Positions 2,027 to 58,741 of a stretch of 64,000 bases of DNA are shown here, one piece after another. The translations under genes were made by a program, and so were the position numbers. Location: NCBI GenBank assembly GCA_020723505.1, contig DYIT01000001.1:8530-72529 (forward strand). The letters run 5' to 3'. Positions within the stretch are counted from its first letter, which is position 1; each line of letters opens with the position of its first letter. The stretch is from Candidatus Kuenenia stuttgartensis. Lineage in GTDB: Bacteria > Planctomycetota > JAKEIC01 > DYIT01. Below the pieces are notes generated by a model that was not told the DNA's origin, did no database searches, and saw nothing but the letters and a program-made list of their open reading frames with translations.

Positions 2027-3768
2027 TGAAGACCTTCAGATGGCTGCTTCCGGTCTACAGGCGCCAGGCGCCCCTGCTCGCGGGGATCGTGGCACTCACG
2101 GTCCTGTACACGGCCGGGCACCTCGGATATCCATACATCCTCGGCAGCGTCATAGACGGGGTCAAGACCGGCCTTTCAGGCGGGAAGATCGCCTTCTACG
2201 CGGTGCTCATCATGGCGCTCGGCGGCGGTTCCCACGTGGCCTACGCGCTGATTCAGGCCTGCAGGGTGAGGGTCAACATAGGCAACGAGCGCATGATACG
2301 CGTGAGGGTGTTCAACCACCTGACAAGGCTGAGCAGCCCGTTCTTCAACCGCTTCCAGAGCGGGGACATCATCACGCGCCTTACGAACGACATATCCGAG
2401 AAGATTGCCTGGTTCAGCTGCTCGGGCATTTTCAGGTTCTTCGAAGCCCTGCTCGTGATATCGATAGGCGTGGCGGTGATGACGGGCATCAACTGGAAGC
2501 TCACGCTGCTCGCCCTGGCCCCGCTGCCTGGAATCCTGCTCGCGTTCCGCATGCTGTCCTCGCGGTTCCGCAAGGCGTTCGAGCGCGTGCAGGCCACGGC
2601 CTCGGAGGCGAACGACGAGCTAGAGTCCGCGCTGTCGGGCGTCAGGATTGTCAAGGCCTACGGCAGGGAGCCCTCGGTGCGCCGCAGATACATGGAAGCC
2701 ACGGACAGGCGCGTGGAAGCGGAAATCCGCCAGGTCAGGATGCACAACCTCTTCCACAACGCGGGCGCGGCAATCGGAGAGCTCGGGGTCGTCGCCCTGC
2801 TCTGGGCCGGCTGCAGCATGGTCATGTCTTCGGAGCTGAGCCTGGGCGACCTGGTCAGGTTCAACATCTACATGATGATGATCATAGAGCCCCTCTGGAG
2901 CATCGGATTCTTCCTCCCGGCGCTGCGGCGCGCAGCCGTGTCAATCGGGAGGCTTTCGGAAATCGAGGACTGGAAGCCCGAGGTCGGGGACGCGCCCGGG
3001 GCCGAGGCCCTGCAGGGGACGAAGGGAGCCGTGGCGTTCGAGAAGGTCGTCTACTGCCACCCTGACTCCGGCGGCGCGGGCGTCTCAGGACTTTCCCTAT
3101 CGGTCCCGGCAGGGAGCAGGCTCGGGATCGTCGGCAGGGTGGGATCCGGCAAGACGACCCTCCTGAACCTCATTCCGCGCGCATGGGATCCTTCGGAAGG
3201 GAGGATCACCGTCGACGGCCGCGACATAAGGAGCTTCACCCTCTCGTCCCTGCGTTCGCACGTGGGGTACGTGCCGCAGGAACCGTTCCTGTTCTCGGAG
3301 ACCATAAGGTCGAACATCCTGCTCGGGCGCGGAATCCGGAGCGAAGCCGACCTCGAGGCGGCGGTGAGGACCGCGCAGCTTTCAGCCGAGCTGGCTGGGT
3401 TCCCTTCCGGGCTGGACGAGGCCCTCGGCCCGAGGGGGATAACGCTTTCCGGCGGGCAGAAGCAGAGGGTGTGCATAGCCCGCGCGCTGCTGGCGCGCCC
3501 GGAAATCCTCGTGCTCGACGACGTGACGTCGAACCTCGACTCCGCGACCGAGGCGGCGTTCTGGCAGGATTTGAAGCGCGACTTCCCGGGCGTCACGGTG
3601 ATTGCGGTGCTGCATAGATCAGCCACGGTCCGCGAGATGGACCGCATCGCGGTGCTGGACGGGGGGAGGGTGGCGGAGGAAGGCACCCACGACGAGCTGT
3701 GGGCGCGCAACGGCATCTACGCCGATCTTCTTCGCCGCCAGATGCTCAAGGACAAGATTTATCCGTGA
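2023..3768 (+). CDS. ABC exporter, fused permease/ATPase subunit 2 (degenerate catalytic site)
   Basis: ATG at 2023 overlaps the upstream TGA (2024-2026). Protein begins MMKTFRWLLPVYRR with a TM domain then an NBD. Walker A GRVGSGKTTL, signature LSGGQKQR, Walker B ILVLDDVTS with Asp in place of the catalytic Glu. The upstream part of ORF 1543..3768 is an out-of-frame shadow of subunit 1. Confidence 0.85.
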   Translation: MMKTFRWLLPVYRRQAPLLAGIVALTVLYTAGHLGYPYILGSVIDGVKTGLSGGKIAFYAVLIMALGGGSHVAYALIQACRVRVNIGNERMIRVRVFNHLTRLSSPFFNRFQSGDIITRLTNDISEKIAWFSCSGIFRFFEALLVISIGVAVMTGINWKLTLLALAPLPGILLAFRMLSSRFRKAFERVQATASEANDELESALSGVRIVKAYGREPSVRRRYMEATDRRVEAEIRQVRMHNLFHNAGAAIGELGVVALLWAGCSMVMSSELSLGDLVRFNIYMMMIIEPLWSIGFFLPALRRAAVSIGRLSEIEDWKPEVGDAPGAEALQGTKGAVAFEKVVYCHPDSGGAGVSGLSLSVPAGSRLGIVGRVGSGKTTLLNLIPRAWDPSEGRITVDGRDIRSFTLSSLRSHVGYVPQEPFLFSETIRSNILLGRGIRSEADLEAAVRTAQLSAELAGFPSGLDEALGPRGITLSGGQKQRVCIARALLARPEILVLDDVTSNLDSATEAAFWQDLKRDFPGVTVIAVLHRSATVREMDRIAVLDGGRVAEEGTHDELWARNGIYADLLRRQMLKDKIYP

Positions 3769-4012
3769 CAGGCTAAGACTAGCGGCGGCGAAGTCGGTTC
3801 GCGGATAAAACCGATCCGGAGGGTGAAGTCAATCGGCGGAGTCCGGGCATGGGAATACAAAGCCCGGACATCCGCCTCCACACAGAGACGGGGCTTTCCG
3901 ATGCTTCGCCGAATAATAAAAATCTCTTCCCGGCAATCCTGCCAAACAGCTATACTATGAACCCAATAAACGGGATATCCGGACCAAGTAAATACAGCTT
4001 ATAGTGGTAATC

Positions 4013-5890
4013 ATGATCAAGAAGCCCAAATCCGGGAACATTCGCAAGTCAAAGCCGGTTCAAGAGGAGCCTGAGCCGGATATGCCGGCGGAGATCAAGG
4101 CTCAACCCCCTGTCGCCAAGGCGCCGGTCGGAATCCCCGAGGCAGTGGACGGCATCGAGGAGCCCGGGGACAAGCCGAAGACCTCTTCGCGAACGCTTGG
4201 GGCGAGGAGGGCCACGGCTGTCGACCTGGCCAAGGGCCAGCGGGAGATATCCGTTTCCGAGTTCTTCATGAAGAACCGGCACCTGCTCGGATTCGACTCG
4301 CCGCGCAAGGCCCTCCTCACCACAATCAAGGAGGCGGTGGACAACTCGCTGGACGCTTGCGAGGAGGCCGGGGTACTCCCCCACATCGACGTGACGATAA
4401 AGGGCATTTCCGAGACGCGGTTTCGGGTGATTGTCCAGGACAACGGGCCCGGAATCGTGAAGAACCAGATAGGGAGGATTTTCGGAAAGCTCCTCTACGG
4501 ATCCAAGTTCCACAGGCTCAAGCAATCCAGGGGGCAGCAGGGCATCGGGATTTCCGCAGCGGGCATGTACGGGATGCTCACCACGGGAAAATCGGTTGCC
4601 ATCACGACCAAGCCGCATCCTGCCAAGCCCGCGCACTACTGCGAAATCCAGATTGATTCCAAGAAGAACGAACCGCAGTATCTCAAGGAGGAGGACGGGC
4701 ACGAATGGACCGGGAGTCCGACCGGAACGCGCGTGGAAATCGAGCTGGAGGCCGAGTACAAGAAGGGCAAGCACTCGGTGAACAACTACCTCCAGCAGAC
4801 GGCGATAGCCAATCCGCACGCGACGCTCTCCTTCAAGGGGCCTGAGGGCGAGGACATGGAGTGGACGAGATCCTCGGACCAGCTTCCGCCCGAGCCGAAG
4901 GAGATAAAGCCCCATCCGCGCGGCATCGAGCTCGGGATACTGATAAAGATGATGAAATCCACGACGGCCCGGAACATGGGGGGCTTTCTGAAGAAGGACT
5001 TCTCGCGCGTATCGCCTGCGGTGGCCGCGCAGATACTGGCCGAGGCGAAGATACCCGCCACGGCCAACCCGAAGCGCCTGGCGGCGAGCAACGCGGAGGA
5101 CGTGTTCAAGGCGATAAATTCCGAGAAGATTCGCATCATGGCGCCGCCGACCAACTGCATATCGCCAATCGGCGGGGACCTCATCGAGAAGAGCCTCAGG
5201 GCGCAGATTAACGCGGAGTTCTACTGCGCGCTGTCGAGGCCGCCCGCGGTGTACAGGGGGAACCCGTTCCAGATCGAGGCGGGGATTGCGTACGGCGGTC
5301 CCGACGCGGACGCGGACTCCCTGGTGAAGGTGATGCGTTTCGCGAACCGCGTGCCGCTGCTCTACCAGCCCGGGGGGTGCGCGATAACTCAGGCCATCAT
5401 CGAGACCGACTGGCGCAACTACCACATGAGCCAGTCGCGCGGATCGCTCCCCGCGGGCCCGGCGGTGATTCTGGTGCACCTTGCTTCCGTGTGGGTGCCG
5501 TTCACTTCCGAGAGCAAGGAGGCGGTCGCCCAGTACCCGGAAATCCGCAAGGAAATCAAGCTCGCTCTCCAGGAATGCGGCAGGGCGCTGGGAAGGTTCC
5601 TGTCGGGCAAGGCGAGGGTCGCGTACGAGGCGAAGCGCCGGAAGATCTTCGAGATCTACATAGACGAGCTGGTGGAAGCCGCCGGGGCGATGGCCAGGAT
5701 AAACAGGGCGAACCTCCGGAAGGACCTGGTCGGGATTGCCAAGAGCAAGACGCTCGACGCGGAGACCCCAAGCGGCGGAGAGAACGGATCGGAGGCCGAA
5801 GCGGCGGCGGCGGCCGGAACCGCGGCCGGCGCCAAGCCCGCGGCGTTCAACGGCGAAGCGAAGGGAGAGGCGGATGACGAAGGCGCTTAA
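4013..5890 (+). CDS. top6B: DNA topoisomerase VI subunit B (GHKL ATPase)
   Basis: Sequence GQREISVSEFFMKNRHLLGFDSPRKALLTTIKEAVDNSLDACEEAG, then VQDNGPGI and GQQGIGISAA, is characteristic of the Top6B Bergerat ATPase fold. A charged/Pro-rich N-terminal leader and an Ala/acidic C-terminal tail flank the core. ATG 4013 is in frame with GTG 4004. Confidence 0.85.
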   Translation: MIKKPKSGNIRKSKPVQEEPEPDMPAEIKAQPPVAKAPVGIPEAVDGIEEPGDKPKTSSRTLGARRATAVDLAKGQREISVSEFFMKNRHLLGFDSPRKALLTTIKEAVDNSLDACEEAGVLPHIDVTIKGISETRFRVIVQDNGPGIVKNQIGRIFGKLLYGSKFHRLKQSRGQQGIGISAAGMYGMLTTGKSVAITTKPHPAKPAHYCEIQIDSKKNEPQYLKEEDGHEWTGSPTGTRVEIELEAEYKKGKHSVNNYLQQTAIANPHATLSFKGPEGEDMEWTRSSDQLPPEPKEIKPHPRGIELGILIKMMKSTTARNMGGFLKKDFSRVSPAVAAQILAEAKIPATANPKRLAASNAEDVFKAINSEKIRIMAPPTNCISPIGGDLIEKSLRAQINAEFYCALSRPPAVYRGNPFQIEAGIAYGGPDADADSLVKVMRFANRVPLLYQPGGCAITQAIIETDWRNYHMSQSRGSLPAGPAVILVHLASVWVPFTSESKEAVAQYPEIRKEIKLALQECGRALGRFLSGKARVAYEAKRRKIFEIYIDELVEAAGAMARINRANLRKDLVGIAKSKTLDAETPSGGENGSEAEAAAAAGTAAGAKPAAFNGEAKGEADDEGA

Positions 5891-6986
5891 GAAGCTCAGG
5901 TCCATGAAGGACCCGGCCGATAAGATTAGGGCCATGGCGGACGCGCTCGTGCGTTTCGCGGAAAAGGGGGAGAACCCCTATCTGGACATACCGTCGAGGA
6001 CCCTTTCGAACGTCACGTTCAGCGACCGCGATTCCATCATCAAGCTCGGCGACGAGACGCAGAGGCGGTTCTTCTTCAACATCGGCCAGGCCAAGAAGTT
6101 CATGCAGACGTATCTCGTGGCGTCGGGGTGCTCGGAGCTGCTCAAGGTCCGGAAGACGACCTCCATCCGCGATCTCTACTACATGACCAAGCACACGATA
6201 AAGGACGCGCGCGAGGAGACGTTCAACGACCAGAAGGAATCGGACCCGATAATCGAGGACCTCGAGGTGGCGCTCGGGTCGCTGAGGGAGGAGCTCAACC
6301 TGTTCGCGAGCAACCGCGGAGCCATGGTGGGCAACATGACGATATGGGACTCCGGCGACATGATCAACCTCAGGAAGCAGGGGTCGGGCGGCTGGTCGGT
6401 GCCGTCCATCGTGGAGGAGAACGTCGTACGGTTCAAGAGCTGCGAGGCGAAGTTCATCCTCCTCGTCGAGAAGGACGCCGTATGGCGCAGGCTCAACGAG
6501 GACAAGTTCTGGAAGAAGCACAACTGCATGCTCGTGCACGGCCAGGGCATGGCGCCCAGGGGGGTCAGGAGGCTTCTCTACCGGATGGTGAACGAGCTAA
6601 AGCTGCCGCTTTTCGTTTTTGTGGACAACGATCCGTGGGGTTTCTACATCTATTCGGTCATCAAGCAGGGGTCGATAAACCTCGCGTTCGAATCGTCGCG
6701 CATGGCGGTGCCGTCCGCGAGATTCCTCGGGCTCAGCTCCTACGACAAGGGCAAGTTCAAGCTGCCCGACAACGTGTCAATCAGCCTCAACAAGGAGGAC
6801 CGCGACAGGGCGAAGCAGATACTCGAGTATCCCTGGTTCCAGAAGGAGGAATGGCAGAAGGAGATAAAGAAGATGCTCAAGGAGGGCATCAAGCTCGAGC
6901 TGGAGGCCCTGAGCGCCAAGGGAATCAGCTTCGTGTCGGAGGAATACCTGCCGTACAAAATCAAGAACAAGCTCTGGCTGAACTGA
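5874..6986 (+). CDS. top6A: DNA topoisomerase VI subunit A (Spo11-like)
   Basis: ATG 5874 (MTKALKKLRSMKDP...) overlaps the top6B end by 17 nt. The ILLVEKDAVW and FVFVDNDPWGFYIYSVIKQGS Toprim-type motifs are typical of Top6A/Spo11. The upstream Arg-rich part of ORF 5736.. is a shadow of top6B. Confidence 0.85.
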   Translation: MTKALKKLRSMKDPADKIRAMADALVRFAEKGENPYLDIPSRTLSNVTFSDRDSIIKLGDETQRRFFFNIGQAKKFMQTYLVASGCSELLKVRKTTSIRDLYYMTKHTIKDAREETFNDQKESDPIIEDLEVALGSLREELNLFASNRGAMVGNMTIWDSGDMINLRKQGSGGWSVPSIVEENVVRFKSCEAKFILLVEKDAVWRRLNEDKFWKKHNCMLVHGQGMAPRGVRRLLYRMVNELKLPLFVFVDNDPWGFYIYSVIKQGSINLAFESSRMAVPSARFLGLSSYDKGKFKLPDNVSISLNKEDRDRAKQILEYPWFQKEEWQKEIKKMLKEGIKLELEALSAKGISFVSEEYLPYKIKNKLWLN

Positions 6987-7002: not shown

Positions 7003-8955
7003 TTACAGGTACATCAGCCTGTAGAATTCGAGTACGACGCCTTTCGCGGGTTCGACGGTATCTGTGTCGAACATGAACCCGGCGCCGCGCACCTGATCGT
7101 AGGCTTCCCTCGTGAGAAGTATCTCCTTGCCGGAGGCAACGTCCTCGCCGAGCTTGGAGGCCTTGTTCACCTGGTCGCCGAACGCGTCGCCCTCTATCCG
7201 CGTGATTCTGCCGAAACCGATGCCCGTGCATATCTGGATGGTCGAGTCCGGCTCCGCGACCGCGTTGTAGCCGTCGAGCGCCGCGTTCATGGCTATCGCC
7301 GCGTCCACCGCCTGCTTCGCCGAAGGGAAGACCGCGAACAGGTTGTCCACGTCCTGCTTGAGCAGCTCGCCCCTGTGGCGCTCTATCACGGGCCTCAAAA
7401 GCTCCGCATGCATCTGGAGGATGCTTAGCGAATGTATGATGCCCTTGCTGGCCGTGATTCTCGTGAACCCCACCGAATCCGTCATCATCACCGCGGCGTC
7501 CGTCTCGAACCGCTCGCGAATCTGCGCGTCTATCTTCTCCTTCTCCTCGGGTTTCTCGAGCCTCCGCCTGAGGAGTTCCGCGAATTCGCCGCTGATCCGG
7601 CCGGGCCCCCTGTGGACCGGCTTCACCAGGGCCGAAATCCTCGATGGGGCATCGACCGAGGCGACCGATTCCTGCACGCCGCTGCGCATGTCCTTGATCT
7701 TCACCTGACCGGCGGCAATTTCATCGGGCCCGACGACGGCGGTTATCGGTATGTTCTTCTTCGCCGCATGCTTGAATTGCTTCGCCAGTTTGCCCGCCTC
7801 GCCCACGTAGGTCTCCGCCCTGAGCCCTGCCTTCCTCATGGCGTCCGCGAGCCTGAGCGACTGCGGGGCGAGATCGTCGGAAAAGACCGTCACCAGGACG
7901 TCGGCGGCGGGGCTCGCGGCGGCGTCCTTCTTCTCTGCGAGGGCGATGATTATCCTCTCGAGCCCGAATGCGAGCCCCACGGCCGGATAGCCTTCCCCGC
8001 CGCCGAGCTGGCCCACGAGCCTGTCGTAGCGGCCGCCTCCCCCCAGCGATCCGATTTTCGGCTCAGTGACCTTTATCTCGAATATCGGACCCGTGTAATA
8101 GTCCAGCCCGCGCACCATTCCGGGCGAGAAGCGGAGCCAGCCCGGCTCGCCGGTCGCGGCTTCGGCCAGCGCGTATATCCTCCTCAGCTCCCCGAAGCCC
8201 TCCTTGCCCGCGGCCGAATTCCCGACGGCAGCCTCCACCCGCCTCATGTCGTCCGCGGGGTCCCCGGTGGTCACGAGCGCGTCCAGCAGCCCTCCGGCTG
8301 CGGCCTCGGCCATTCCAGGGCCGCCGTCGCGGGAGACGAGAATCTCGCCGACCGCCCCGGGGCCCATCTTCTCGAGCTTGTCCACGGCCTTGCATGCAGC
8401 GACCCTCGACTCGGGCGGAACGCCGAAGGCTTCCATAAGGCCCGTGATAATCTTCCTGTTGTTCACCTCGACGCAGAATTCCGCGAAGCCGAGCTTCTTC
8501 ATGGCCGAGCGGACGATGAGCAGGATTTCCGCGTCGGCTGACATCTCCGGACTGCCGATTATGTCGATGTCGCACTGGCAGAACTCGCGGAACCTCCCGG
8601 CCTGGGGGTTGTCGGCGCGCCATACCGGCTGAATCTGGTACCGCTTGAACGGCATGGGCAGGTTCTTGCCGTGCATGGCCATCACCCTGCTCAGGGGCAC
8701 GGTCAGGTCGTACCTGAGGCCGAGCGTGCGTCCGTCGCGGTAGGCGAGAGGGAAGATGAGCTTGTCCTCCTCGCCGCCGCTCTTGCCCGTCAGCACGTCC
8801 ATGAACTCGAAGGCGGGGGTCTCAATCGGCTCGAAGCCGAACGACTCGAAGGTCTCCCTGAGGATTGAGATTGCTCGATTGCGGACCGCCATGTCCGCCG
8901 GCAGGAAATCCCTCGTGCCCTTGAAGATTCTCGTCTCTATGCCGCCGCTCATCAT
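7003..8955 (-). CDS. hisS: Histidyl-tRNA synthetase fused to a C-terminal class III adenylate/guanylate cyclase domain
   Basis: N-terminal about 420 aa: KGTRDFLP, class II motif 2 FKRYQIQPVWRADNPQAGRFREFCQCDIDIIG and motif 3 GGGGRYDRL, plus an anticodon-binding-like region. C-terminal about 190 aa: AAVMMTDSVGFT, KQDVDNLFAVF and TGIGFGRITRIEGDAFGDQVNKASKLGE, which match class III cyclase core motifs. Start set at the MMSGGIETRIFKGTRD pair (ATG 8955); the longer ORF to 9225 would overlap pdaD. Confidence 0.8.
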   Translation of the reverse strand: MMSGGIETRIFKGTRDFLPADMAVRNRAISILRETFESFGFEPIETPAFEFMDVLTGKSGGEEDKLIFPLAYRDGRTLGLRYDLTVPLSRVMAMHGKNLPMPFKRYQIQPVWRADNPQAGRFREFCQCDIDIIGSPEMSADAEILLIVRSAMKKLGFAEFCVEVNNRKIITGLMEAFGVPPESRVAACKAVDKLEKMGPGAVGEILVSRDGGPGMAEAAAGGLLDALVTTGDPADDMRRVEAAVGNSAAGKEGFGELRRIYALAEAATGEPGWLRFSPGMVRGLDYYTGPIFEIKVTEPKIGSLGGGGRYDRLVGQLGGGEGYPAVGLAFGLERIIIALAEKKDAAASPAADVLVTVFSDDLAPQSLRLADAMRKAGLRAETYVGEAGKLAKQFKHAAKKNIPITAVVGPDEIAAGQVKIKDMRSGVQESVASVDAPSRISALVKPVHRGPGRISGEFAELLRRRLEKPEEKEKIDAQIRERFETDAAVMMTDSVGFTRITASKGIIHSLSILQMHAELLRPVIERHRGELLKQDVDNLFAVFPSAKQAVDAAIAMNAALDGYNAVAEPDSTIQICTGIGFGRITRIEGDAFGDQVNKASKLGEDVASGKEILLTREAYDQVRGAGFMFDTDTVEPAKGVVLEFYRLMYL

Positions 8956-9077
8956 GCGCTCCGCAAAACCCCGGCTGGATTCTATCCTCCGCGTGCCGGG
9001 TGTCAAGCGAGCCGCCTGATGCCCAGGGCTGAAGAGTCCGGAACCTTCGCCCCCGGGTCCGCCCGGGAGATTTTCCA

Positions 9078-9106
9078 TTGACCCAGGGATTTTATGCATT
9101 ATATAT
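9078..9106 (+). promoter_or_regulatory. Candidate sigma-70 promoter for pdaD-speB
   Basis: TTGACC (9078-9083), a 16-17 nt spacer, then a TATATA/ATATAT box at 9100-9106, about 60 nt upstream of the pdaD ATG. Sequence pattern only. Confidence 0.4.
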
Positions 9107-9168
9107 ATGATCGCTCCCGACGGCGGCTTCGGACGTCGGTGCTCTCCGGTCATTTTGGGGGATTCTCG

Positions 9169-9723
9169 ATGGAGGATCAGTTCGTATTCAACAAGATATT
9201 TCTCACCAAGGGTTGGGGGGTCCACAAGGAGAAGCTGTCGAGCTTCGAGATGGCCCTCAGGAAGGCTGAAATCGCGCGGTTCAATCTCGTCAAGGTGTCG
9301 TCAATCATTCCTCCAGGCTGCAAAATCATCTCCAAGGCCAAGGGCCTTTCGCAGCTGAAGTCGGGCCAGATTCTCTACCTGGTCCTCGCGCGCGCCGAGA
9401 CAAACGAGCCCAACAGGATGGTATCGGCGTCCATCGGCATGGCCATTCCGCGCGATCCCACGAAGTACGGATACATCTCCGAACACCACAGCTTCGGGCA
9501 GACGGCGAAGGAAGTGGGCGACTACTCCGAGGACCTCGCGGCCACGATGCTCGCCTCGACTCTCGGAATCCAGTTCGACCTGGACAAGGGATGGGACTGG
9601 AGGCGCGAGCAGTTCAAGATGGGCGGCAACATCGTCAAGACGCAGAACCTGACGCAGGTCGCCCGTGGGGACATGAAGCACAACTGGACGACGGTGATAT
9701 CGGCCGCCGTGTTCGTGCCGTAA
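9169..9723 (+). CDS. pdaD: Pyruvoyl-dependent arginine decarboxylase
   Basis: MEDQFVFNKIFLTKGWG...FNLVKVSSIIPPGC contains the Ser-Ser self-cleavage site context. Size (184 aa) and the ending VISAAVFVP are typical of PdaD. Confidence 0.85.
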   Translation: MEDQFVFNKIFLTKGWGVHKEKLSSFEMALRKAEIARFNLVKVSSIIPPGCKIISKAKGLSQLKSGQILYLVLARAETNEPNRMVSASIGMAIPRDPTKYGYISEHHSFGQTAKEVGDYSEDLAATMLASTLGIQFDLDKGWDWRREQFKMGGNIVKTQNLTQVARGDMKHNWTTVISAAVFVP

Positions 9724-10592
9724 TGAGGAGCGGGAGATTCATCTACGAGACCGCCGCGGAGATGCCCCGGCCGCCGCGCGTGCGCGTCATCCCCGTTCCC
9801 ATGGAAGAGACGGTGTCGTATCGCCCGGGCGCGGCCAGGGCTCCGGCCGCGATTCTCAACGCCTCGATGCAGGTGGAATACTACGACGCCTTTCTGGGGA
9901 CAGAGCCCTGCCTCGAATTCGGAATCGAGACCTCCGCCCCGGTCCTCGGGCGCGGGCCTTCGGACTGGGTCCGCAAGACCGCGGCCGAGTGCAGGAAGGC
10001 CCTGCTTGCCGGCAGGATTCCGGCGTTCATCGGCGGCGAGCACACTCTCACGGCCGGAGCGGTGCATGCGGCCATGGACGTCCATCCGGACCTTATCATC
10101 GTGCAGATTGACGCCCACGCCGATTTGAGGGACTCGTACAGGGGCAACCCGCTGTCCCACGCGTGCGCGATGCGCCGCTGCAGGGACGAGGGCGCTGAAA
10201 TCGTCTCGTTCGGCGTCAGGGCCTACTGCGCCGAGGAGGCGGAATACGTCAAAGGGGACAGGGGAATAACCGCCGTCCCAGTGGAAGCCCTTTCGCGCGA
10301 CGGGTCATGGAAGAAGCTCTTGGCGTCACGGCTCAAGGGGAGGCCCGCATATCTGACCGTGGACCTGGACGGGCTGGATCCTTCCGTCGTTCCGGCCGTG
10401 GGCACGCCCGTTCCGGGCGGGCTGTCGTGGCGGGAAGCGAAGTCGGTAATCGACACGGTCTTCGCCTCGTGCAGGCAGGTTGCCGGGCTTGACATGGTTG
10501 AACTCGCTCCCGGGAAGGACGACCAGACGTCCGAATTCGCGGCGGCGCAGCTCCTCTACTACGCCATCTCGAGGGCTGCCGGCCGCAGGTGA
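9723..10592 (+). CDS. speB: Agmatinase (ureohydrolase family)
   Basis: ATG 9723 overlaps the pdaD TAA by 1 nt. Ureohydrolase metal-binding motifs are present: GGEHTLT, VQIDAHADLRD, LTVDLDGLDPS. Confidence 0.85.
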   Translation: MRSGRFIYETAAEMPRPPRVRVIPVPMEETVSYRPGAARAPAAILNASMQVEYYDAFLGTEPCLEFGIETSAPVLGRGPSDWVRKTAAECRKALLAGRIPAFIGGEHTLTAGAVHAAMDVHPDLIIVQIDAHADLRDSYRGNPLSHACAMRRCRDEGAEIVSFGVRAYCAEEAEYVKGDRGITAVPVEALSRDGSWKKLLASRLKGRPAYLTVDLDGLDPSVVPAVGTPVPGGLSWREAKSVIDTVFASCRQVAGLDMVELAPGKDDQTSEFAAAQLLYYAISRAAGRR

Positions 10593-37859: not shown

Positions 37860-40800
37860 TCACGGCGCCTTGGGTTTCCCGGCCCTGCGGGCGGCCTTTT
37901 CCGCGAGGATGTCCGGGCTCGTCTCGAGGAGCTCCTCAATCGGGATCCCATCGAGGCAGGAATCATCGAAGCCCGTCATGATTTCGCCCGCCGCCCACCT
38001 TATCTCCTCGTACCGCTCGTAGTAGTTCCTGAGTATCTTCACCTTGGCGTCCAGCGGCAGGTCTTTCCTGAAGGACACGTGGAACAGGATCATCGGCATG
38101 GCGCCGGTGTCCTCCCTCTTTACGATTGTGGGGATGATTGCAATAGCCCTCCTGTCGCGCTTGCCGGTACCGATGAAGACCCTTCCCCTGGCCATGACGC
38201 TGAGCTTCGTGCCGGCCAGCCTTCTGGGGCTTGAATAGCGGGACTCGATTTCCCCGGCCACGCCCTGCCTTCTTTCCACGGCGATTGTCGTGTTCTCGTC
38301 CCGCCTGAAGGTCTCGTCGAGGCCCAGTATGGAATAGAGGGTGAAGCCTAAGACCTCGCTAATCGCCTCCGACACGTGCTCTATCACGTTGAGGTTCGAG
38401 TAGTCTATCTGGTCCGGGCTTATCCCGAGCTCGCCGAGCATCCTGAACAGCACGCCCGTGAACTTGACCTCCTCCCTTGAAATCCCGACTGTGACGGTCT
38501 TGGCCTGGTGCTTAATCGCGTCTATGGGTCTCGTGAGCTCCCCGATGCCCTTCGACAGCACCATCAGGAACTCGTCGTACAGAGCGTCCCATCGCGGCGT
38601 GATTCCGAAGTCGTATTTCACGTCCTGGAGCCTCGTCCGGCCCGCCGCGTAGGCGTAAAGAGCCAGAATCCTGGTGGAGGTCTCGACCTCGAGGGCGGAG
38701 TTGTAGCTTCCCTTCCAGACTAGGTCGCGGAACCTCTGGCCGAGCACGCCGACCTGCCGGGCGAGGAGACCCGCGGTCTGGGCCAGAGCGAAGCCCGACC
38801 GCCGCCTGATTTCCGGCAGTGCGGCCACGATCGCCGCCCTGGTCGCCCTCATCACCTGCGCCGACTCGTCCGTCGCCCTCGCGGCGTAGTACCCGAAGAG
38901 GTGCCCGACCATCGTGCTGAGGAGGAAGGAGAGCTCCCCCGCCCCCCGCCGCACGGTGAGCACGGCCGAGGCGAAGCTCGAGAACGCGGGCTGGCCCTCC
39001 TGCGCAATCACCACCGGGCAGGCCCTGTGCGCCTTGAAGATTGAGACCTCCTTCACGATGTCCCCCAGGTTGGACTCCGGAACGCCGGCGGCGCAGACGA
39101 TTATCAGGGGCTCGGACGAGAGGTCGATGTGCTTCTTGTCCTCGGTCACGTCGCAGGAGATGGACTTGTAGTTGAGCTCGCTCAGCTTGATTCTGATTTC
39201 CTCCGCGCTCACCTTGTCGAAGCCGCTGCCGACCACGGCCCAGTGCCTCTTCGACGGCGCCAAGCCCTCGGCGGCCGCCCGCACCTTCTCCCGGTCGGCC
39301 AGCGTCTGGCGCATGAGGTCCGGAAGCCTGCCCAGGACCCACAGCCTTCTTGCGATTTCCTCCTCCGCCATCGCCCCGCACTCGTGCGCGAGGTGCAGGG
39401 AAACGAGGTAGCCGGCGGCTACCTGGCAGTAGAACGCCTTGGTCGAGGCCACCGACATCTCGACGTCCCTTCCGTCGGACGTGTACATCACCCCGTCCGA
39501 CTTGTCGGTGAGGTCGGAGTTCCTCCTGTTCACGATGGCGAGCACGGACGCGCCGCGCTTGCGGGCGAGATCCACCGTCCTGTTGGTGTCGGTCGTCGTG
39601 CCGGACTGGGAGACGGCGACGACGAGCGTGTCGGACATGTTCCTGCGCAGCCCGAAGCCCGAAAGCTCGGACGCCTTCATAGCCTGGACGTGGAACCTCT
39701 CCCGGCCGAACACCTCCTCGAACAGCGCCGCGATGCCGTATCCTGCAATCGAGGCCGTCCCCTGGCCGATGAACGTCACGTTCCTGATTGTCCCGTTCTT
39801 CAGCGATTCCAGGACCGCGGGGGGCACAATCCCGTCCGAGAGCATGAAGACCGGACGAGGGAACCCGGTCTCGGGATCGGTTTCGACCCTGAACTTGCCG
39901 CGTATCGTCTTCGCGAAGCTGTCGGGCGACTCGGAGATCTCCTTCAGGAAGAAGTGCTCGTGCTCCCCCCTGTGGATGTCGCGGGTCGTTATTCCCGCCT
40001 TCGAGGGCTTTCCCAGGGCCAGTTCCCGCCCGTCGAATCCGAAGGTGCGCAGGCTGCATGCCCCCTCGGGCCTGCATTCGAGCGAGAAGATGCGGCCGGA
40101 TCCGCCGCCCTTGCCGCCGTCGTCCTCCATCTTGTGGTAGGCGTTCGCAAGCTCGACCATGCCGTAGATCTCGGAGGCGAAGAGCGTGCACATGTCGGAC
40201 CTGCCCACGTACAGCGCCTGGCCGCTGCCCTTCTGGGCGAGCAGCACCTTCCCCGGCTCGGAGGTGCAGATCGACGCGATTGCGAAAGAGCCCTCGAACC
40301 GGGTGACGGCGCTCCTGAAAGCGTCATGGAAGCCCATCCCTCCCGCCATCCCGGCTTCTATGACCATAGGTATGATCTTCGCGTCCGTGGTGACGGTGGG
40401 CGGGACGCGCGTTCCCGCCGCCTCGACCTCCCTCCTGAGCGCATGGTAGTTGTCGATGTCCCCGTTGAGGACGGAGAACACGACCGGGACTTCGAGCATG
40501 GAGGGGGCGCCGTCCCCGCGGGAGTCCACGGGATGGCAGTTCTCCTCGTTTATTATCCCGTTCGACGCCCAGCGCGTGTGCCCCAACGAAATCATCTCCG
40601 CCCCTTCGGTCCCAAGGGCCGCGAGGAACGGCGCATCCAAGCGAATCTTCTGCAGAAGCCCGGTCACGTTCTGCCCCAGCCTTCCGATTTCGTCCGCGAC
40701 CTTGTGCGCGAACACCAGGCACTGGCCGCCGTCCGGATTCACTGTCCTGAGCACGGCCCCGTCCCTGAGGTTCGGGATTTTCATGCGCTCCAGGAGAGCG

Positions 40801-41375
40801 CCGCCGGCCCTGCCGAGGAATCCCTCCGCCTCCCCCGCCGTCCGGAACGTGAAGACCGTAATCATCCCGGCCGAATCCCTGCCCCTGACCTCGAGCCTGT
40901 CCAGGGAACGGAGCATGGAAGCCAGCTCGAAACCGCGGTTGAACACGTGCGCGGCCCCCTGCTTCCCGGGAACCCCTTCTATAATCAGTTTCACTCGCTC
41001 CGCGAGCTCGGGGATGTCCTTGCGGAAACGCCAGCAGGCGTCCTTCAGGAGCACGGCCACGCGGTTCCATTCCTCGAGGACGTCGGTGGACGCTCCCTCG
41101 CACCTCGCCGAAAGGGATTCCAGGGCGGACGAAATGGCGGATGCGGCTTCATCGGCCGGCGAGGGGCCGCGGAGCGCAATCTCCCTTATCGCCCAGGGGT
41201 TGACGCAGGCCAGCGACTTGTGATCCATCTCCGTCGAGATTCCCATCACGCGCCCGGCGTCCGCACCGCCTGCAATCTCCGTCCTGGCTGCCTGCGCTAT
41301 CCGCACGGCCTCCGCAAGCCCCCCGTCGCCTCCGTCCGCGGTCTTCCTCGCGATTACCCCGATTATCCCGCACAT
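37860..41375 (-). CDS. Giant GlmS-like protein: class II glutamine amidotransferase plus two SIS domains with large insertions and extension
   Basis: MCGIIGV carries the N-terminal Cys nucleophile. LEVRGRDSAG and HTRWASNG are GATase-II motifs. SIS motifs are VAVSQSGTTTDT and a second SIS (WAVVGSGFDKV...). An internal AKTVTVG resembles the canonical GlmS C-terminus. At 1171 aa it is about twice canonical length. Confidence 0.75.
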   Translation of the reverse strand: MCGIIGVIARKTADGGDGGLAEAVRIAQAARTEIAGGADAGRVMGISTEMDHKSLACVNPWAIREIALRGPSPADEAASAISSALESLSARCEGASTDVLEEWNRVAVLLKDACWRFRKDIPELAERVKLIIEGVPGKQGAAHVFNRGFELASMLRSLDRLEVRGRDSAGMITVFTFRTAGEAEGFLGRAGGALLERMKIPNLRDGAVLRTVNPDGGQCLVFAHKVADEIGRLGQNVTGLLQKIRLDAPFLAALGTEGAEMISLGHTRWASNGIINEENCHPVDSRGDGAPSMLEVPVVFSVLNGDIDNYHALRREVEAAGTRVPPTVTTDAKIIPMVIEAGMAGGMGFHDAFRSAVTRFEGSFAIASICTSEPGKVLLAQKGSGQALYVGRSDMCTLFASEIYGMVELANAYHKMEDDGGKGGGSGRIFSLECRPEGACSLRTFGFDGRELALGKPSKAGITTRDIHRGEHEHFFLKEISESPDSFAKTIRGKFRVETDPETGFPRPVFMLSDGIVPPAVLESLKNGTIRNVTFIGQGTASIAGYGIAALFEEVFGRERFHVQAMKASELSGFGLRRNMSDTLVVAVSQSGTTTDTNRTVDLARKRGASVLAIVNRRNSDLTDKSDGVMYTSDGRDVEMSVASTKAFYCQVAAGYLVSLHLAHECGAMAEEEIARRLWVLGRLPDLMRQTLADREKVRAAAEGLAPSKRHWAVVGSGFDKVSAEEIRIKLSELNYKSISCDVTEDKKHIDLSSEPLIIVCAAGVPESNLGDIVKEVSIFKAHRACPVVIAQEGQPAFSSFASAVLTVRRGAGELSFLLSTMVGHLFGYYAARATDESAQVMRATRAAIVAALPEIRRRSGFALAQTAGLLARQVGVLGQRFRDLVWKGSYNSALEVETSTRILALYAYAAGRTRLQDVKYDFGITPRWDALYDEFLMVLSKGIGELTRPIDAIKHQAKTVTVGISREEVKFTGVLFRMLGELGISPDQIDYSNLNVIEHVSEAISEVLGFTLYSILGLDETFRRDENTTIAVERRQGVAGEIESRYSSPRRLAGTKLSVMARGRVFIGTGKRDRRAIAIIPTIVKREDTGAMPMILFHVSFRKDLPLDAKVKILRNYYERYEEIRWAAGEIMTGFDDSCLDGIPIEELLETSPDILAEKAARRAGKPKAP

Positions 41376-52531: not shown

Positions 52532-52560
52532 TTTACATGCCCCGAAAACGGGCCTACAAT
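52532..52560 (+). promoter_or_regulatory. Candidate sigma-70 promoter for the vWA gene pair
   Basis: TTTACA-N17-TACAAT, about 22 nt upstream of ATG 52582, with GGAGG RBS in between. Confidence 0.45.
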
Positions 52561-52581
52561 AATCGATTCGGAGGTTGCGTC

Positions 52582-54924: not shown

Positions 54925-55021
54925 GGAGGCACCGGCGTCTGCGGCGCGGATGCGCCGCGCGGCCAGGTGCGGGGTTTCCAGGGATTCCGCCGGTCCGTTT
55001 CCGGCTTTGCGGGAGACTGGT

Positions 55022-58000: not shown

Positions 58001-58741
58001 GGCAAACCCGCCGCGAAGGCGGCCGAGAAGGCGCCCGCCCCCGCGGAGGAGCCCGGCGAAGAGGAGACTATCCTCAATGCCTCCGACGCCGTGGAGAAGC
58101 TGTTCGGCGGCGAGAAGACCGAGATTGTCGACGCGGGCGCGGAGGAGCCGGCGGAGCATGCGCCCGAGTTCGCCGAGAAGGGAGACAGCACTGAAATCGT
58201 CGAGAGCGTGGAGGAGCCGCCCGGATTCAAGGGGGACCGTACGGAAGTAGTCGAAGGGGACGTGCAGGCGAAGGACGAGATGGAGTTCTTCGAGGTTTCC
58301 GAGGACGAGGAGCCCTCAATCGAGATCCCCGAGAGGGTTTCAGAGCCCGAGCCGGCCCCGGAGCCGCCTGCGGACGAGTCGGCGGAGATTCCGGCCGAGC
58401 TCAGGGAAACCAAGGTGGAGGAGTCCACCGGGATTCTGGGCAAGGCGTACGGCACCGAGATGAGGACGATTGGGAAGCAGGCCCCGAAGGAGGACGTGGA
58501 AATCAGCAACGAGGGCGACGACGACGTGGAGATTATCGAGAGCGGGGAGGAGTTCGAGGCGTTCCCTGAGCAGCAGACGATACTCGAGACGGCGTTCGGC
58601 GACGCCATGAAGGAAGACAGGAAGGTCCCGCCCCAGCCGCCGGCCGGGGAACAGGGGCAGATAATCGTCATTGACGAGTGGGAATCCAAGAAAATCGAGG
58701 ACAGGAACAAGGGCAAGGACAAGGGGACCAGGAAGAGGTGA
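55022..58741 (+). CDS. Single-pass membrane vWA protein: extracytoplasmic vWA plus beta-rich repeats, TM helix, cytoplasmic FHA-like segment and long acidic repeat-motif tail
   Basis: Signal MRANKSMTTAFVAAAFCVLAAVPASG. Perfect MIDAS DDSPS in VVFVTDDSPSM, and ILVTDGK. The TM helix is VVAAAAAAGGLLVLGLAWWLV. Next comes HVNGKPY...GDWIRLRGSRF..YVFF (weakly FHA-like), then about 380 aa of Glu/Ala/Pro-rich sequence with repeated short motifs. Confidence 0.75.
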   Translation: MRANKSMTTAFVAAAFCVLAAVPASGDAPVDVVFVTDDSPSMARNDPYGLRSMLFKALCDLLAHQGGDRVAVLRLGGALESAEAGIEVFPLTEIPKAADEKAKALFELKAVFDGSLAGFGRAADFNHLFEKGVFPLLRDRKDARKAILILVTDGKMDVVEGNRVHEDYRKAVADSGQAPGREALNDAALRRFRNAALPMLAETGLTVVPIAVAGSPAADSAVLADLASLKGGTGRVIPLSPDINACVADVLRALGREIGLIPLGPPVTLKAEPGSEISRDMWIPSEASATRILVVSDTADFTISFSDVSGSALGSEEGLGFFGANEKHRVISLGRQKIPNRILKLRNRGKQAASFGIHTLSRFDIAPRAKVVNPGRTAVAGGSIMIEAGLVSLPDETPVRDRWLVERSSVDISVIDSSGERTEITRGFSGGDSAFRIVEIPLSKDAAGGTYLLRIEPRILSGADAVSTGWVDEQVKVVAARTVVKVEFDSTAGFPDTEVSLKGAVESGKVESEALEIRLAARGGTGDAISTSLKWDPEARIFRGSVKFPFTGRFEVERSMIREVEVQPGLAGGVDISERRFSVLGASGKPIEGLTFEGAAGSAFGDQSVEISANLAPGEEGSFTISPELRADAGAVAVEILKDGQLLLGQERIRLAGGKAGQKLTLRLKPGNDARPSGEIGTFRIRGKIGESSMVLDKYLRVVPLPPGAVEKKVLYEDLRVVAAAAAAGGLLVLGLAWWLVQPRFKSEHIVELDPSTGEPGEGTMLRDMSGSVSPGRADGMPDVKNSVSFELTGLRPFSKSVCLAGPLKPFIQFHVNGKPYLSPTQIRHGDWIRLRGSRFTREYVFFTAPVEDDDWKEIMGRIAADKSRPRQEVDAQAEAPAAATAAPSASTGEAAAQLDRIFGGEAKPAAEAPAPTPAAPESQRPRKVVTLEDFFGADAAEKVRVEEGHKPKAAAEPARDETPKGAEGEIKEALDDQATVLETFFGSKDGIPGKPAAKAAEKAPAPAEEPGEEETILNASDAVEKLFGGEKTEIVDAGAEEPAEHAPEFAEKGDSTEIVESVEEPPGFKGDRTEVVEGDVQAKDEMEFFEVSEDEEPSIEIPERVSEPEPAPEPPADESAEIPAELRETKVEESTGILGKAYGTEMRTIGKQAPKEDVEISNEGDDDVEIIESGEEFEAFPEQQTILETAFGDAMKEDRKVPPQPPAGEQGQIIVIDEWESKKIEDRNKGKDKGTRKR

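What the first reader, a model, noticed from the sequence alone, without database searches (positions are those of the whole stretch)
7003..8955. Histidyl-tRNA synthetase fused in frame to a class III nucleotidyl cyclase domain
**Seen in sequence**
- One uninterrupted ORF contains a complete-looking HisRS. It has motif 2 (FRyE-like ...GRFREFCQCDIDIIG), motif 3 (GGGGRYDRL) and an anticodon-binding region.
- After an about 35-aa charged linker comes a cyclase homology domain.
- That domain has both metal-binding Asp contexts (MMTDSVGFT and VDNLFAVF), a Lys four residues before the second Asp (adenine-type position), and GDQVNKASKLGE.
- In that last motif Lys sits where the canonical transition-state Arg is found.

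**Established knowledge**
HisRS-like domains serve as uncharged-tRNA or histidine sensors in GCN2 and HisZ.

**Inference**
This fusion could couple tRNA-His or histidine status to cAMP (or another cNMP) production. Alternatively, a cNMP-related domain may regulate aminoacylation. I do not know of a characterised aaRS-cyclase fusion.
Basis: partly seen in the sequence, partly recalled or inferred. Interest (0 to 1): 0.65.

Follow-up and report, generated by a model that had tools for sequence, protein, structure and literature searches.

The report
One-off HisRS–cyclase fusion of neighbouring genes
A normal histidyl-tRNA synthetase gene runs in frame into the small adenylate-cyclase-like gene that lies just downstream as a separate gene in its four closest relatives, so this is a unique join of two neighbours (or a 1–2-base assembly error), not an established sensor protein.

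Summary
Window 8955..7003 (minus strand) is one 650-codon ORF. It encodes a complete HisRS (aa 1-444; TIGR00442 370 bits, cutoff 287) and a class III cyclase homology domain (aa ~457-650). The cyclase assignment rests on Pfam PF00211 (25.4 bits alone, cutoff 21.9), an AF2 model (pLDDT 94.5) and a fold match to Ma1120 (TM 0.87). Both metal Asp, the Lys/Asp adenine pair and the Asn are present. Lys601 replaces the transition-state Arg, and that Lys is invariant across a widespread family of ~200-aa stand-alone proteins.

The fusion is a singleton. In all four closest relatives, hisS and the cyclase are separate genes overlapping by 4 nt ([A/G]TGA) in the same synteny. None of the 160 more distant cyclase loci has hisS nearby. 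The top lists of two very large protein searches showed no other HisRS-cyclase protein.

The window's junction is 36 nt, against 32/35/38 nt in relatives. That is a relative-like junction shifted by +1 or -2 nt.

I read it as a lineage-specific fusion of a translationally coupled gene pair (about 0.6). An assembly indel at the GTGA of codon 444 is the main rival (about 0.3). The tRNA/histidine-sensing idea has no support beyond gene linkage in one narrow clade.

The parts
8979..9006 (-). Promoter-like site TTGACA-16 nt-TAGAAT, ending 24 nt upstream of the ATG at 8955
   Evidence: 11 of 12 matches; 1 site found against 0.3 expected. This is a consensus match only. The public gene call of 667 aa (P0121) starts at the TTG of this -35 hexamer. 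Alignment with relatives supports a start at 8955 or 8952 instead.
7624..8955 (-). HisRS portion (aa 1-444): class II catalytic core with motifs 2 and 3, an insertion domain and an anticodon-binding domain. It is of the LRYDLTVP / WRAD..GRFREFxQCD type.
   Evidence: PF13393, PF03129, and TIGR00442 at 370 bits (cutoff 286.75); 62% identical to the stand-alone HisRS P0122 and P0123, and the window shares every column that is invariant across the 12 aligned sequences. Homology runs through ...SRISAL-V444.
7623..7626 (-). GTGA: GTG (codon V444, in the ORF frame) overlapping a TGA in the next frame. It is the only stop/start overlap left in the junction. V444 aligns with the conserved C-terminal Leu of HisRS.
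   Evidence: In-frame NTG followed by A occurs at 1.6-2.8% of codons, so one in a 15-codon junction is expected about 20-35% of the time.
7588..7623 (-). Junction/linker, aa 445-456 (KPVHRGPGRISG), 36 nt. It corresponds to the HisRS tail plus the cyclase head of relatives.
   Evidence: the equivalent spacing is 32, 35 and 38 nt in L001, L005 and L006, all 2 mod 3; the window's 36 nt is 0 mod 3. GC3 is 12 of 12 in the fused frame. AF2 pLDDT is about 51 for the first 10 residues.
7507..7590 (-). Conserved N-terminal helical hairpin of the stand-alone cyclase family (aa 456-483; xF..LLRRR...ID..I..RF)
   Evidence: family alignment; helices at model residues 13-24 and 26-40, pLDDT above 90; the profile aligns with Ma1120 residues 10-40.
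7012..7506 (-). Class III cyclase homology domain core (aa 484-648). Residues: Asp493 and Asp537 (metal), Lys533 and Asp590 (purine-specifying), Asn597, and Lys601 (where Arg is canonical).
   Evidence: PF00211 scores 25.4 bits against a gathering score of 21.9 when the domain is scanned alone; 33 solved class III cyclases match, the best at 2.9e-23; pLDDT 94.5; Ma1120 at TM 0.87-0.89 and rmsd about 2 A; coordinates.
7003..7005 (-). Stop codon of the ORF. It lies 16 nt from the convergent end of the Topo VI subunit A gene (ends at 6986, + strand).

Best explanation
The ORF is a lineage-specific, probably recent, in-frame fusion of two neighbouring genes.

What the parts are. One is the housekeeping histidyl-tRNA synthetase gene. 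The other is a small stand-alone class III cyclase-homology gene that lies directly downstream. It belongs to the 'N-x-A-S-K-L-G-E-D' family of about 200 aa. In the four closest known relatives the two genes form a translationally coupled pair, with the hisS stop overlapping the cyclase start as [A/G]TGA.

How the fusion arose. In the window a net change of +1 or -2 nt in the roughly 36-nt junction puts both genes in one frame. No stop remains between them.

What the product would do (inferred). It is a 650-aa bifunctional polypeptide. The N-terminal 444 residues should charge tRNA-His as usual. The C-terminal domain has both metal-binding Asp, a Lys/Asp adenine-type pair and the catalytic Asn, so it is most likely an ATP-using cyclase making cAMP. 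The family-wide Lys in place of the transition-state Arg may alter its catalytic rate. HisRS is a homodimer and class III cyclases need a head-to-tail dimer. Tethering would therefore fix a 1:1 stoichiometry and favour cyclase dimerisation.

Shown versus inferred. Shown: ORF continuity, domain identities, the conserved residues, separate genes in relatives, and singleton status. Inferred: that the DNA sequence is correct, that the fusion protein is made, cAMP as product, and dimer scaffolding. Nothing shows that histidine or tRNA-His regulates the cyclase.
For: ORF and domains.

Fold.

Family-wide invariants (D50, D94, N154, K158 in domain numbering).

Separate, 4-nt-overlapping hisS and cyclase genes, in two contigs within the same PvlArgDC-agmatinase / Topo VI synteny, in all four relatives whose junction could be seen:
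-, the P0004 contig;
-, L001;
-, L005 and L006.

Junction:
- Length is 36 nt against 32/35/38 nt in relatives.
- GC3 is 12 of 12 in the fused frame.
- The linker holds no in-frame ATG, GTG or TTG. This fits a junction whose internal start and stop signals have been lost rather than a single miscalled base.

The single-error alternative would require two unusual features:
- HisRS would end before its conserved C-terminal Leu. Only 5 of 119 homologues do so.
- The cyclase head would be about twice as long as in any of the five clade members.

Assembly quality: every large gene inspected in the window is intact, with ORFs of 1263, 1171, 1048, 795 and about 450 aa. That argues against an indel-rich assembly.
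Against: The fused protein is a singleton: one member on one contig (P0121). It has no independent copy.
- It is the only protein spanning both parts among the listed hits of the 5.8-billion-cluster searches.
- It is the only one in the top 150 of the 1.84-billion-representative search.

A GTGA start/stop overlap sits exactly where HisRS homology ends (7626-7623), with a GAGGA 11 nt upstream. One extra base in the preceding gCCCtg run, or 2 missing bases, would restore the two-gene arrangement seen in every relative. No read-level data are available.

The cyclase activity, its product and any effect of the Arg-to-Lys change are untested.
Confidence: 0.6

Rival explanations
1. The fusion is an assembly or sequencing artefact, or a private frameshift variant with no functional meaning. 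On this view the true genome has two genes, as in all relatives. hisS would end at the TGA of the GTGA at 7626-7623, and the cyclase would start at the GTG (codon 444). A 1-nt insertion in the last three hisS codons (for example in the C-run of gCCCtg), or a 2-nt deletion, merged the frames in the consensus.
For: The protein is a singleton with one member on one contig. All four relatives have separate, overlapping genes. A GTGA lies exactly at the end of HisRS homology, with a GAGGA upstream. It is the only stop in the neighbouring frame within the junction. The linker's 100% GC3 in frame is equally compatible with it being the cyclase's own N-terminal head.
Against: HisRS would then end before its conserved C-terminal Leu, as only 5 of 119 homologues do. 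With the 2-nt variant it would end right at it, as 3 of 119 do.

The cyclase head would be 12 residues before the xF motif, against 6 in four clade members and 3 in the fifth.

The total junction length of 36 nt matches relatives (32-38 nt). That suggests the ancestral overlap lay inside the present linker, not at codon 444.

A GTGA at that spot is expected by chance about 20-35% of the time.

No broken genes were noticed among the large ORFs of the window.
Confidence: 0.3
2. This is the first reader's idea: an evolved sensor-effector. The HisRS moiety would sense histidine or uncharged tRNA-His and allosterically control cNMP synthesis by the fused cyclase, or cNMP production would control aminoacylation. 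The analogy is with the HisRS-like domains of GCN2 and HisZ.
For: The hisS-cyclase pair is conserved and translationally coupled in five members of a narrow clade. Fusion of neighbours is classically taken as a hint of functional interaction (established 'Rosetta stone' reasoning). Both partners are obligate dimers (established knowledge).
Against: The linkage is confined to that clade.
- The next-closest HisRS orthologues (52-55% identity) have unrelated downstream genes.
- None of the 160 other loci of the cyclase family has hisS within 3-4 kb.

The HisRS is a full catalytic orthologue, not a degenerate sensor. The cyclase family works as a stand-alone protein in at least 594 species genomes. 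The linker is 12 disordered residues with no added regulatory element. There is only one fused example.
Confidence: 0.1
3. The C-terminal domain is not a conventional adenylate cyclase. The invariant Lys in place of the transition-state Arg, within the invariant KLGED motif, could mark a subfamily with a different reaction. Candidates are another NTP, a pyrimidine cNMP as in Pycsar cyclases, or a non-cyclising nucleotidyl transfer. It could also have only a nucleotide-binding role.
For: Lys158 (Lys601 in ORF numbering) and KLGED are invariant in 51 of 51 aligned family members. Asn and Arg are described as essential for catalysis in mammalian cyclases, in a reference cited within PMC4215837. 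There is weak similarity to PycC models (at most 23.6 bits). No member of this subfamily turned up as characterised in my searches.
Against: Both metal-binding Asp and the Asn are invariant, and the Lys/Asp purine pair is mostly conserved. That pattern indicates catalysis on a purine NTP. Ma1120 is itself active with a non-canonical Ala-Arg pair (PMC4215837), so this position tolerates variation. The PycC scores are no better than generic cyclase-domain similarity. No Pycsar-type effector gene is next to the cyclase in any of the called gene maps.
Confidence: 0.2

Closest known systems
Ma1120 (Mycobacterium avium), a minimal soluble class III adenylate cyclase (PDB 4wp3, 4wp8, 4wp9, 5d15)
   Same: It is the best solved structural match: Foldseek TM 0.87-0.89, rmsd about 2 A; sequence E 2.6e-9 with the single protein and 1e-17 with the family profile. 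Both are single cyclase domains of about 200 aa with an N-terminal helical extension. Both have the two metal Asp and a Lys/Asp (K101/D157) substrate pair (PMC4215837).
   Different: Identity is only about 25%. Ma1120 has Ala164-Arg168 at the transition-state positions; the window's domain has Asn597-Lys601. Ma1120 is not linked to hisS.
The family of stand-alone ~200-aa 'adenylate/guanylate cyclase domain-containing proteins' with the N-x-A-[SC]-K-L-G-E-D motif (uncharacterised; e.g. P0001-P0120, L007-L166)
   Same: The window's C-terminal 207 residues are a full-length member. Identity is 52-57% to the clade members and 32-42% to the other aligned members. All family invariants and the N-terminal hairpin are present.
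   Different: All 120 listed hits of the domain search are stand-alone proteins of 189-286 aa. The exhaustive search added longer tandem-cyclase-domain, TPR or IQ proteins. None is joined to an aaRS.
hisS-cyclase bicistronic pair of the closest relatives (L001 2971-4305 / 4302-4919; L005; L006; the contig of P0004/P0122)
   Same: The genes are orthologous: HisRS 62% and cyclase 52-57% identical. In the P0004 contig and L001 the flanking synteny is the same, with PvlArgDC-agmatinase on one side and Topo VI on the other. The junction length is similar.
   Different: There are two ORFs in different frames, with a 4-nt [A/G]TGA stop/start overlap. In the window there is one ORF.
HisRS-like sensor or regulatory domains: GCN2 C-terminal HisRS-like domain and HisZ
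   Different: Those are diverged, non-aminoacylating paralogues, and HisZ lacks the anticodon-binding domain. The window's HisRS passes the hisS equivalog model and fails the HisZ model (370 bits against a cutoff of 287; 196 bits against a cutoff of 272). It keeps every invariant catalytic-core column and sits in the orthologous hisS locus.
Cyclase domains fused to unrelated enzymes, e.g. Rv1900c/LipJ and 3mr7 (cyclase plus alpha/beta-hydrolase)
   Same: A class III cyclase domain forms the C-terminal module of a two-enzyme polypeptide. Both are among the PDB matches. The NCBIfam LipJ model gives a weak hit.
   Different: The partner domain differs, and those architectures recur in many genomes. 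HisRS-cyclase is seen once.

Membership tests
Histidyl-tRNA synthetase (hisS, class IIa aaRS) | Scores above the curated equivalog cutoff of TIGR00442 | tested here: met
   370.1 bits against a cutoff of 286.75, covering aa 11-432 and model positions 3-405 of 406.
Histidyl-tRNA synthetase (hisS, class IIa aaRS) | Class II motifs 2 and 3, the HisRS-specific motifs, and a C-terminal anticodon-binding domain | tested here: met
   GRFREFCQCD at aa 120-129, GGGGRYD at aa 305-311, LRYDLTVP at aa 80-87. PF03129 matches aa 352-441. The window shares every column invariant across the 12 aligned HisRS sequences.
Histidyl-tRNA synthetase (hisS, class IIa aaRS) | Is the organism's functional, and only, HisRS | not testable with these tools
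   There is no second hisS in the 64-kb window, but the rest of the genome is not available. Orthologous synteny with the stand-alone hisS of relatives suggests it is the housekeeping copy.
Class III nucleotidyl cyclase (cyclase homology domain, PF00211) | Pfam gathering score | tested here: met
   The domain alone scores 25.4 bits against 21.9. Within the whole 650-aa protein it scores 21.5 bits, just below the cutoff. 26 of 30 family members match PF00211.
Class III nucleotidyl cyclase (cyclase homology domain, PF00211) | Cyclase-homology fold | tested here: met
   The AF2 model has pLDDT 94.5 and pTM 0.90. All 50 listed Foldseek PDB matches are class III cyclases; the top one, Ma1120, has TM 0.87-0.89.
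Class III nucleotidyl cyclase (cyclase homology domain, PF00211) | Two metal-binding Asp | tested here: met
   Asp493 and Asp537 are invariant in 51 of 51 family members.
Class III nucleotidyl cyclase (cyclase homology domain, PF00211) | Substrate-specifying pair (Lys/Asp for ATP) | tested here: met
   Lys533 and Asp590 align with Ma1120 K101 and D157. They are mostly, but not always, conserved in the family.
Class III nucleotidyl cyclase (cyclase homology domain, PF00211) | Transition-state Asn-Arg pair | tested here: not met
   Asn597 is present, but Lys601 replaces the Arg. The Lys is invariant in the family. Ma1120 shows that the pair is not absolutely required in canonical form (PMC4215837).
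Class III nucleotidyl cyclase (cyclase homology domain, PF00211) | Head-to-tail dimer and cNMP synthesis | not testable with these tools
   This needs biochemistry. No characterised member of this subfamily was found.
HisZ / GCN2-type HisRS-like regulatory domain | A diverged, non-catalytic HisRS paralogue (HisZ: no anticodon-binding domain; scores above the HisZ model cutoff) | tested here: not met
   TIGR00443 scores 196.2 bits against a cutoff of 271.65. The anticodon-binding domain is present and the catalytic motifs are intact.
Pycsar cyclase (PycC) defence system | Strong match to PycC models and an adjacent cNMP-binding effector gene | tested here: not met
   PADLOC PycC hits reach only 14-23.6 bits. 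The neighbours are hisS, Topo VI and PvlArgDC/agmatinase, with no effector.
Recurrent (evolutionarily established) multidomain architecture HisRS+CHD | The same architecture is present in independent genomes | tested here: not met
   Only P0121, the window's own protein, spans both parts. Ten of the long hits were scanned and none has an aaRS domain. The limit is that only the top 120 or 150 hits are listed per search.

The most novel reading that the evidence does not exclude
The fused ORF is real and expressed. On this reading it reveals a genuine physical partnership between HisRS and a minimal class III cyclase, a partnership already implied by their translationally coupled operon in this clade. 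The HisRS dimer would scaffold the cyclase dimer. Occupancy of the anticodon-binding domain by tRNA-His, next to the 12-residue tether, would gate cAMP synthesis. That would be a bacterial link between aminoacylation status and second-messenger signalling, and the first aaRS-nucleotidyl cyclase enzyme.
Probability: 0.1. Interest if true: 0.75.

Novelty: new variant of a known kind. Interest (0 to 1): 0.3.

Why it matters
If the junction is real, this would be the only known aminoacyl-tRNA synthetase covalently joined to a nucleotidyl cyclase. It would also be a 'Rosetta stone' pointer to a possible HisRS-cyclase partnership in a small, probably planctomycete-related clade.

The more solid by-products are two:
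- A narrow clade has a conserved, translationally coupled hisS-cyclase operon.
- A widespread, uncharacterised subfamily of about 200-aa class III cyclase-like proteins has an invariant Lys where the transition-state Arg normally sits.

If the junction is an indel error, the finding is a cautionary example. Four-nucleotide gene overlaps turn into apparent 'novel architectures' with a single miscalled base.

Tried and rejected
1. Looking for other HisRS-cyclase fusions.
- I searched with the C-terminal domain, the full length, and the anticodon-binding domain plus cyclase against 1.84 billion representatives.
- Only the window's own protein spans both parts.
- Ten of the long hits were scanned with Pfam; they are tandem cyclase-domain, TPR or IQ proteins.

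2. Looking for more members of the narrow clade or an independent copy of the junction.
- The genome contigs and metagenome-contig scans returned only relatives at 49% identity or less.
- The window's exact protein is not on record elsewhere.

3. Conserved-neighbour analysis of the broad cyclase family. It was too noisy because of shadow ORFs in GC-rich DNA, so I abandoned it. Only the hisS presence/absence result is used.

4. An 'ATCA relic' reconstruction.
- The idea was to drop one G of the G5 run and change ATCA to ATGA, giving hisS ...GPAG* overlapping MSGEFAELL.
- It is attractive because it mimics P0001's start.
- It needs two changes, and the linker's 12 of 12 GC3 in the fused frame argues against a recent frame-0 tail there. 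I keep it only as a possible older history.

5. GTGA at codon 444 as decisive evidence for an artefact. I rejected this as decisive because such overlaps occur at 1.6-2.8% of in-frame codons.

6. Defence-system (Pycsar) membership: only weak generic hits.

7. Regulatory RNA (T-box or similar) near hisS: no Rfam hit and no tRNA in the window.

8. A crude in-house gene caller to detect frameshifted genes. It mis-called several genes. Manual inspection of one 'gap' showed an intact radical-SAM ORF. The assembly-quality argument is therefore qualitative only.

9. Literature searches for aaRS-cyclase fusions: nothing relevant.
Full report

Yes. On the minus strand an uninterrupted ORF runs from ATG 8955 to the stop at 7005-7003, 650 codons in all. 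The longest possible ORF reaches 9225.

The N-terminal two-thirds is a complete HisRS.
- Pfam finds tRNA-synt_His at aa 13-335 and the HGTP anticodon-binding domain at aa 352-441.
- The NCBIfam hisS equivalog TIGR00442 scores 370.1 bits against a cutoff of 286.75. The HisZ model TIGR00443 scores 196 bits against a cutoff of 272 and fails.

A promoter-like TTGACA-16-TAGAAT sits at 9006-8979 on the minus strand. Together with the alignment to relatives, it supports the start at 8955. The public 667-aa gene call (P0121) begins at the TTG of that -35 hexamer and is probably over-extended.

**2. What is the C-terminal domain?**

Within the whole protein, PF00211 scores 21.5 bits, just below its gathering score of 21.9. 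Scanned alone, the last 207 residues score 25.4 bits.

Further evidence places it firmly among class III cyclases.
- A single-sequence search of the PDB finds Ma1120 at E = 2.6e-9.
- A profile of 30 family members finds 33 solved class III cyclases, the best being 3mr7 at 2.9e-23 and Ma1120 at 1e-17.
- An AlphaFold2 model built on 51 homologues has mean pLDDT 94.5 and pTM 0.90.
- All 50 listed Foldseek matches in the PDB are class III cyclases. Ma1120 leads with TM 0.87-0.89 and rmsd about 2 A.

I mapped the residues using the Ma1120 alignment and the roles given in PMC4215837.

| Role | Window residue | Ma1120 equivalent |
|---|---|---|
| Metal binding | Asp493, Asp537 | – |
| Substrate-specifying | Lys533, Asp590 | K101, D157 |
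| Transition state | Asn597 | A164 |
| Transition state | Lys601 | R168 |

The Lys is not a peculiarity of this protein. In alignments of 30 and 51 homologues, D50, D94, N154 and K158 (domain numbering) and the whole KLGED motif are invariant.

Residues 456-483 form the conserved N-terminal helical hairpin of the family, predicted with pLDDT above 90. Only aa 445-456 (KPVHRGPGRISG) are junction.

**3. Where does the domain come from?**

A search with the C-terminal 220 residues returned 156 hits. All 120 listed are stand-alone proteins of 189-286 aa, many named 'class 3 adenylate cyclase' by their sources. The closest four are 54-59% identical.

The family is widespread. The motif [VM]NxA[SC]KLGED confirmed relatives in at least 594 GTDB species-representative genomes. 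They include Cyanobacteria, Leptospira, Acidobacteriota, Myxococcota, Burkholderiales, Planctomycetota, Chloroflexota and Patescibacteria.

**4. The decisive context**

The contig carrying the close homologue P0004 has this gene order: agmatinase-family gene, PvlArgDC, hisS (457 aa), cyclase (199 aa), Topo VI subunit A. The window has the same neighbours. But in that contig hisS and the cyclase are two genes that overlap by 4 nt.

Three further relatives show the same two-gene arrangement.
- L001: hisS 2971-4305 and cyclase 4302-4919, with Topo VI B/A downstream.
- L005 and L006: two short contigs.
- I confirmed that their upstream ORFs are HisRS and that the overlaps read GTGA, ATGA and ATGA.

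The HisRS of these relatives is 62% identical to the window's.

The linkage does not extend further.
- The next-closest HisRS orthologues (52-55% identity) are followed by unrelated genes.
- None of the 160 loci of the broader cyclase family has a hisS within the 3-4 kb fetched on each side.

**5. Is the fusion found anywhere else?**

No.
- In the full-length search only the window's own protein is long (P0121: one member, one contig of 140,495 bp). The other 119 listed hits are HisRS of 428-498 aa.
- An exhaustive HMMER search of 1.84 billion representatives used the anticodon-binding domain plus cyclase as query, so that a true fusion would outrank stand-alone cyclases. Again only P0121 spanned both parts.
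- Ten of the long hits were scanned. They are tandem cyclase-domain proteins or carry TPR or IQ modules, and none has an aaRS domain.
- The literature searches found nothing on aaRS-cyclase fusions.

**6. Anatomy of the junction**

HisRS homology runs through ...SRISAL-V444. V444 (GTG, 7626-7624) aligns with a C-terminal Leu found in 76 of 120 HisRS sequences. Cyclase-family homology starts at E457-F458 (EFAELLRRR).

Between the two lie 36 nt. In L001, L005 and L006 the same interval is 32, 35 and 38 nt, each 2 mod 3 as the 4-nt overlap requires. So the window has a relative-like junction that differs by a net +1 or -2 nt. That difference is exactly what merges the frames.

Inside the linker there is no in-frame ATG, GTG or TTG. 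The only stop in the neighbouring frame is the TGA that overlaps GTG444. All 12 linker codons end in G or C, against a gene-wide GC3 of 0.86. The fused frame therefore looks like the frame that has been translated.

**7. Real fusion or indel artefact?**

The artefact model is simple. One extra base in the last three hisS codons (for example in gCCCtg), or two missing bases, would make hisS stop at the TGA of GTGA. The cyclase would then start at GTG444, which has a GAGGA 11 nt upstream.

Four points count against it.
- (a) In-frame NTG-A occurs at 1.6-2.8% of codons in this genome, so one in a 15-codon junction is expected 20-35% of the time.
- (b) HisRS would end before its conserved Leu, which only 5 of 119 homologues do. 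With the 2-nt variant it would end right at it, as 3 of 119 do.
- (c) The cyclase head would be 12 residues before the xF motif. It is 6 in four clade members and 3 in the fifth.
- (d) The conserved total spacing suggests the ancestral overlap lay inside the present linker, where start and stop have since disappeared. That takes more than one change.

The large genes I inspected in the window are intact: 1263, 1171, 1048, 795 and about 450 aa. The assembly is therefore not obviously indel-prone, though this check was qualitative.

Against a real fusion stands the complete lack of independent confirmation. I put a real fused ORF at about 0.6-0.65 and an artefact or private variant at about 0.3-0.35. 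Only reads can settle it.

**8. How it most likely works**

Shown:
- a full HisRS;
- a cyclase domain with an intact metal site, an adenine-type Lys/Asp pair and the Asn;
- origin from a translationally coupled gene pair.

Inferred:
- The fusion protein charges tRNA-His normally.
- The tethered cyclase makes cAMP.
- The HisRS homodimer brings two cyclase domains together for the head-to-tail dimer that class III cyclases need (established knowledge of both families).
- The family-wide Arg-to-Lys change may alter the catalytic rate. Ma1120 shows that non-canonical transition-state pairs can be active (PMC4215837).

There is no evidence of allosteric coupling to histidine or tRNA-His. The HisRS is not a degenerate sensor like HisZ or GCN2. 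The cyclase family functions without HisRS almost everywhere. The weak PycC similarity (at most 23.6 bits), with no effector gene nearby, gives no reason to invoke a defence system.

**9. Comparison, novelty and verdict**

The parts are ordinary: hisS, and a member of a large if uncharacterised class III cyclase subfamily. The architecture is unique but seen only once, and it derives from neighbouring genes. I rate it a new variant of a known kind, namely gene fusion of an operon pair, with low-to-moderate interest (0.3).

The most novel reading not excluded is a true HisRS-cyclase partnership that links aminoacylation status to cAMP. It gets about 0.1 probability and would merit about 0.75 interest if shown.

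The organism is probably related to Planctomycetota, because the nearest named HisRS hits are Planctomycetota MAGs at 51-54% identity. I did not pursue the taxonomy further.

Noticed in passing
window 7003-7626 (-); family P0001-P0120, L007-L166: The cyclase domain belongs to a widespread, apparently uncharacterised subfamily of about 200-aa stand-alone class III cyclase-like proteins. The motif confirmed relatives in at least 594 species genomes across many phyla. The family has an invariant N-x-A-[SC]-K-L-G-E-D motif, with Lys where the transition-state Arg normally sits, an EILLT motif, and a conserved N-terminal helical hairpin.
   Followed up: partly
P0241, P0243, P0247, P0291 (1579-1752 aa) and P0244-P0378 (about 450-830 aa): Some proteins carry 2-5 tandem copies of this same KLGED-type cyclase domain. 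Among the ten scanned, one also has an IQ calmodulin-binding motif (P0245) and one has TPR repeats (P0350). Class III cyclases work as dimers, so tandem arrays of up to five copies are unusual.
   Followed up: partly
window 8979-9006 (-): A near-consensus sigma-70-like promoter (TTGACA-16-TAGAAT, 11 of 12) lies 24 nt upstream of the hisS ATG. The public 667-aa gene call starts at the TTG of the -35 hexamer, so it is probably 17 codons too long.
   Followed up: partly
window 4004-6986 (+) and 9094-10592 (+): Topoisomerase VI subunits B and A, and a pyruvoyl-dependent arginine decarboxylase plus an arginase-family (agmatinase-like) gene pair, flank the hisS-cyclase locus. Two relative contigs have the same neighbours. 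These are 'archaeal-type' genes in a genome whose nearest named HisRS relatives are Planctomycetota MAGs. The HisRS itself is of the LRYDLTVP eukaryote/archaea-like type; that last point is from my own knowledge of HisRS sequences and was not tested.
   Followed up: partly
window 52537-54924 (+) and 54950-58741 (+): Two large adjacent ORFs (795 and 1263 aa) have strong coding signal but no Pfam match at E <= 1e-5.
   Followed up: no
window 37863-41375 (-): A 1171-aa ORF has a glutamine amidotransferase domain (aa 261-404) and a SIS domain (aa 531-657), which is GlmS-like. It is about twice the usual GlmS length, with roughly 260 N-terminal and 500 C-terminal residues left unassigned by Pfam.
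   Followed up: no
window 1-64000: There are no tRNA genes and no Rfam family at gathering threshold anywhere in the 64 kb.
   Followed up: yes
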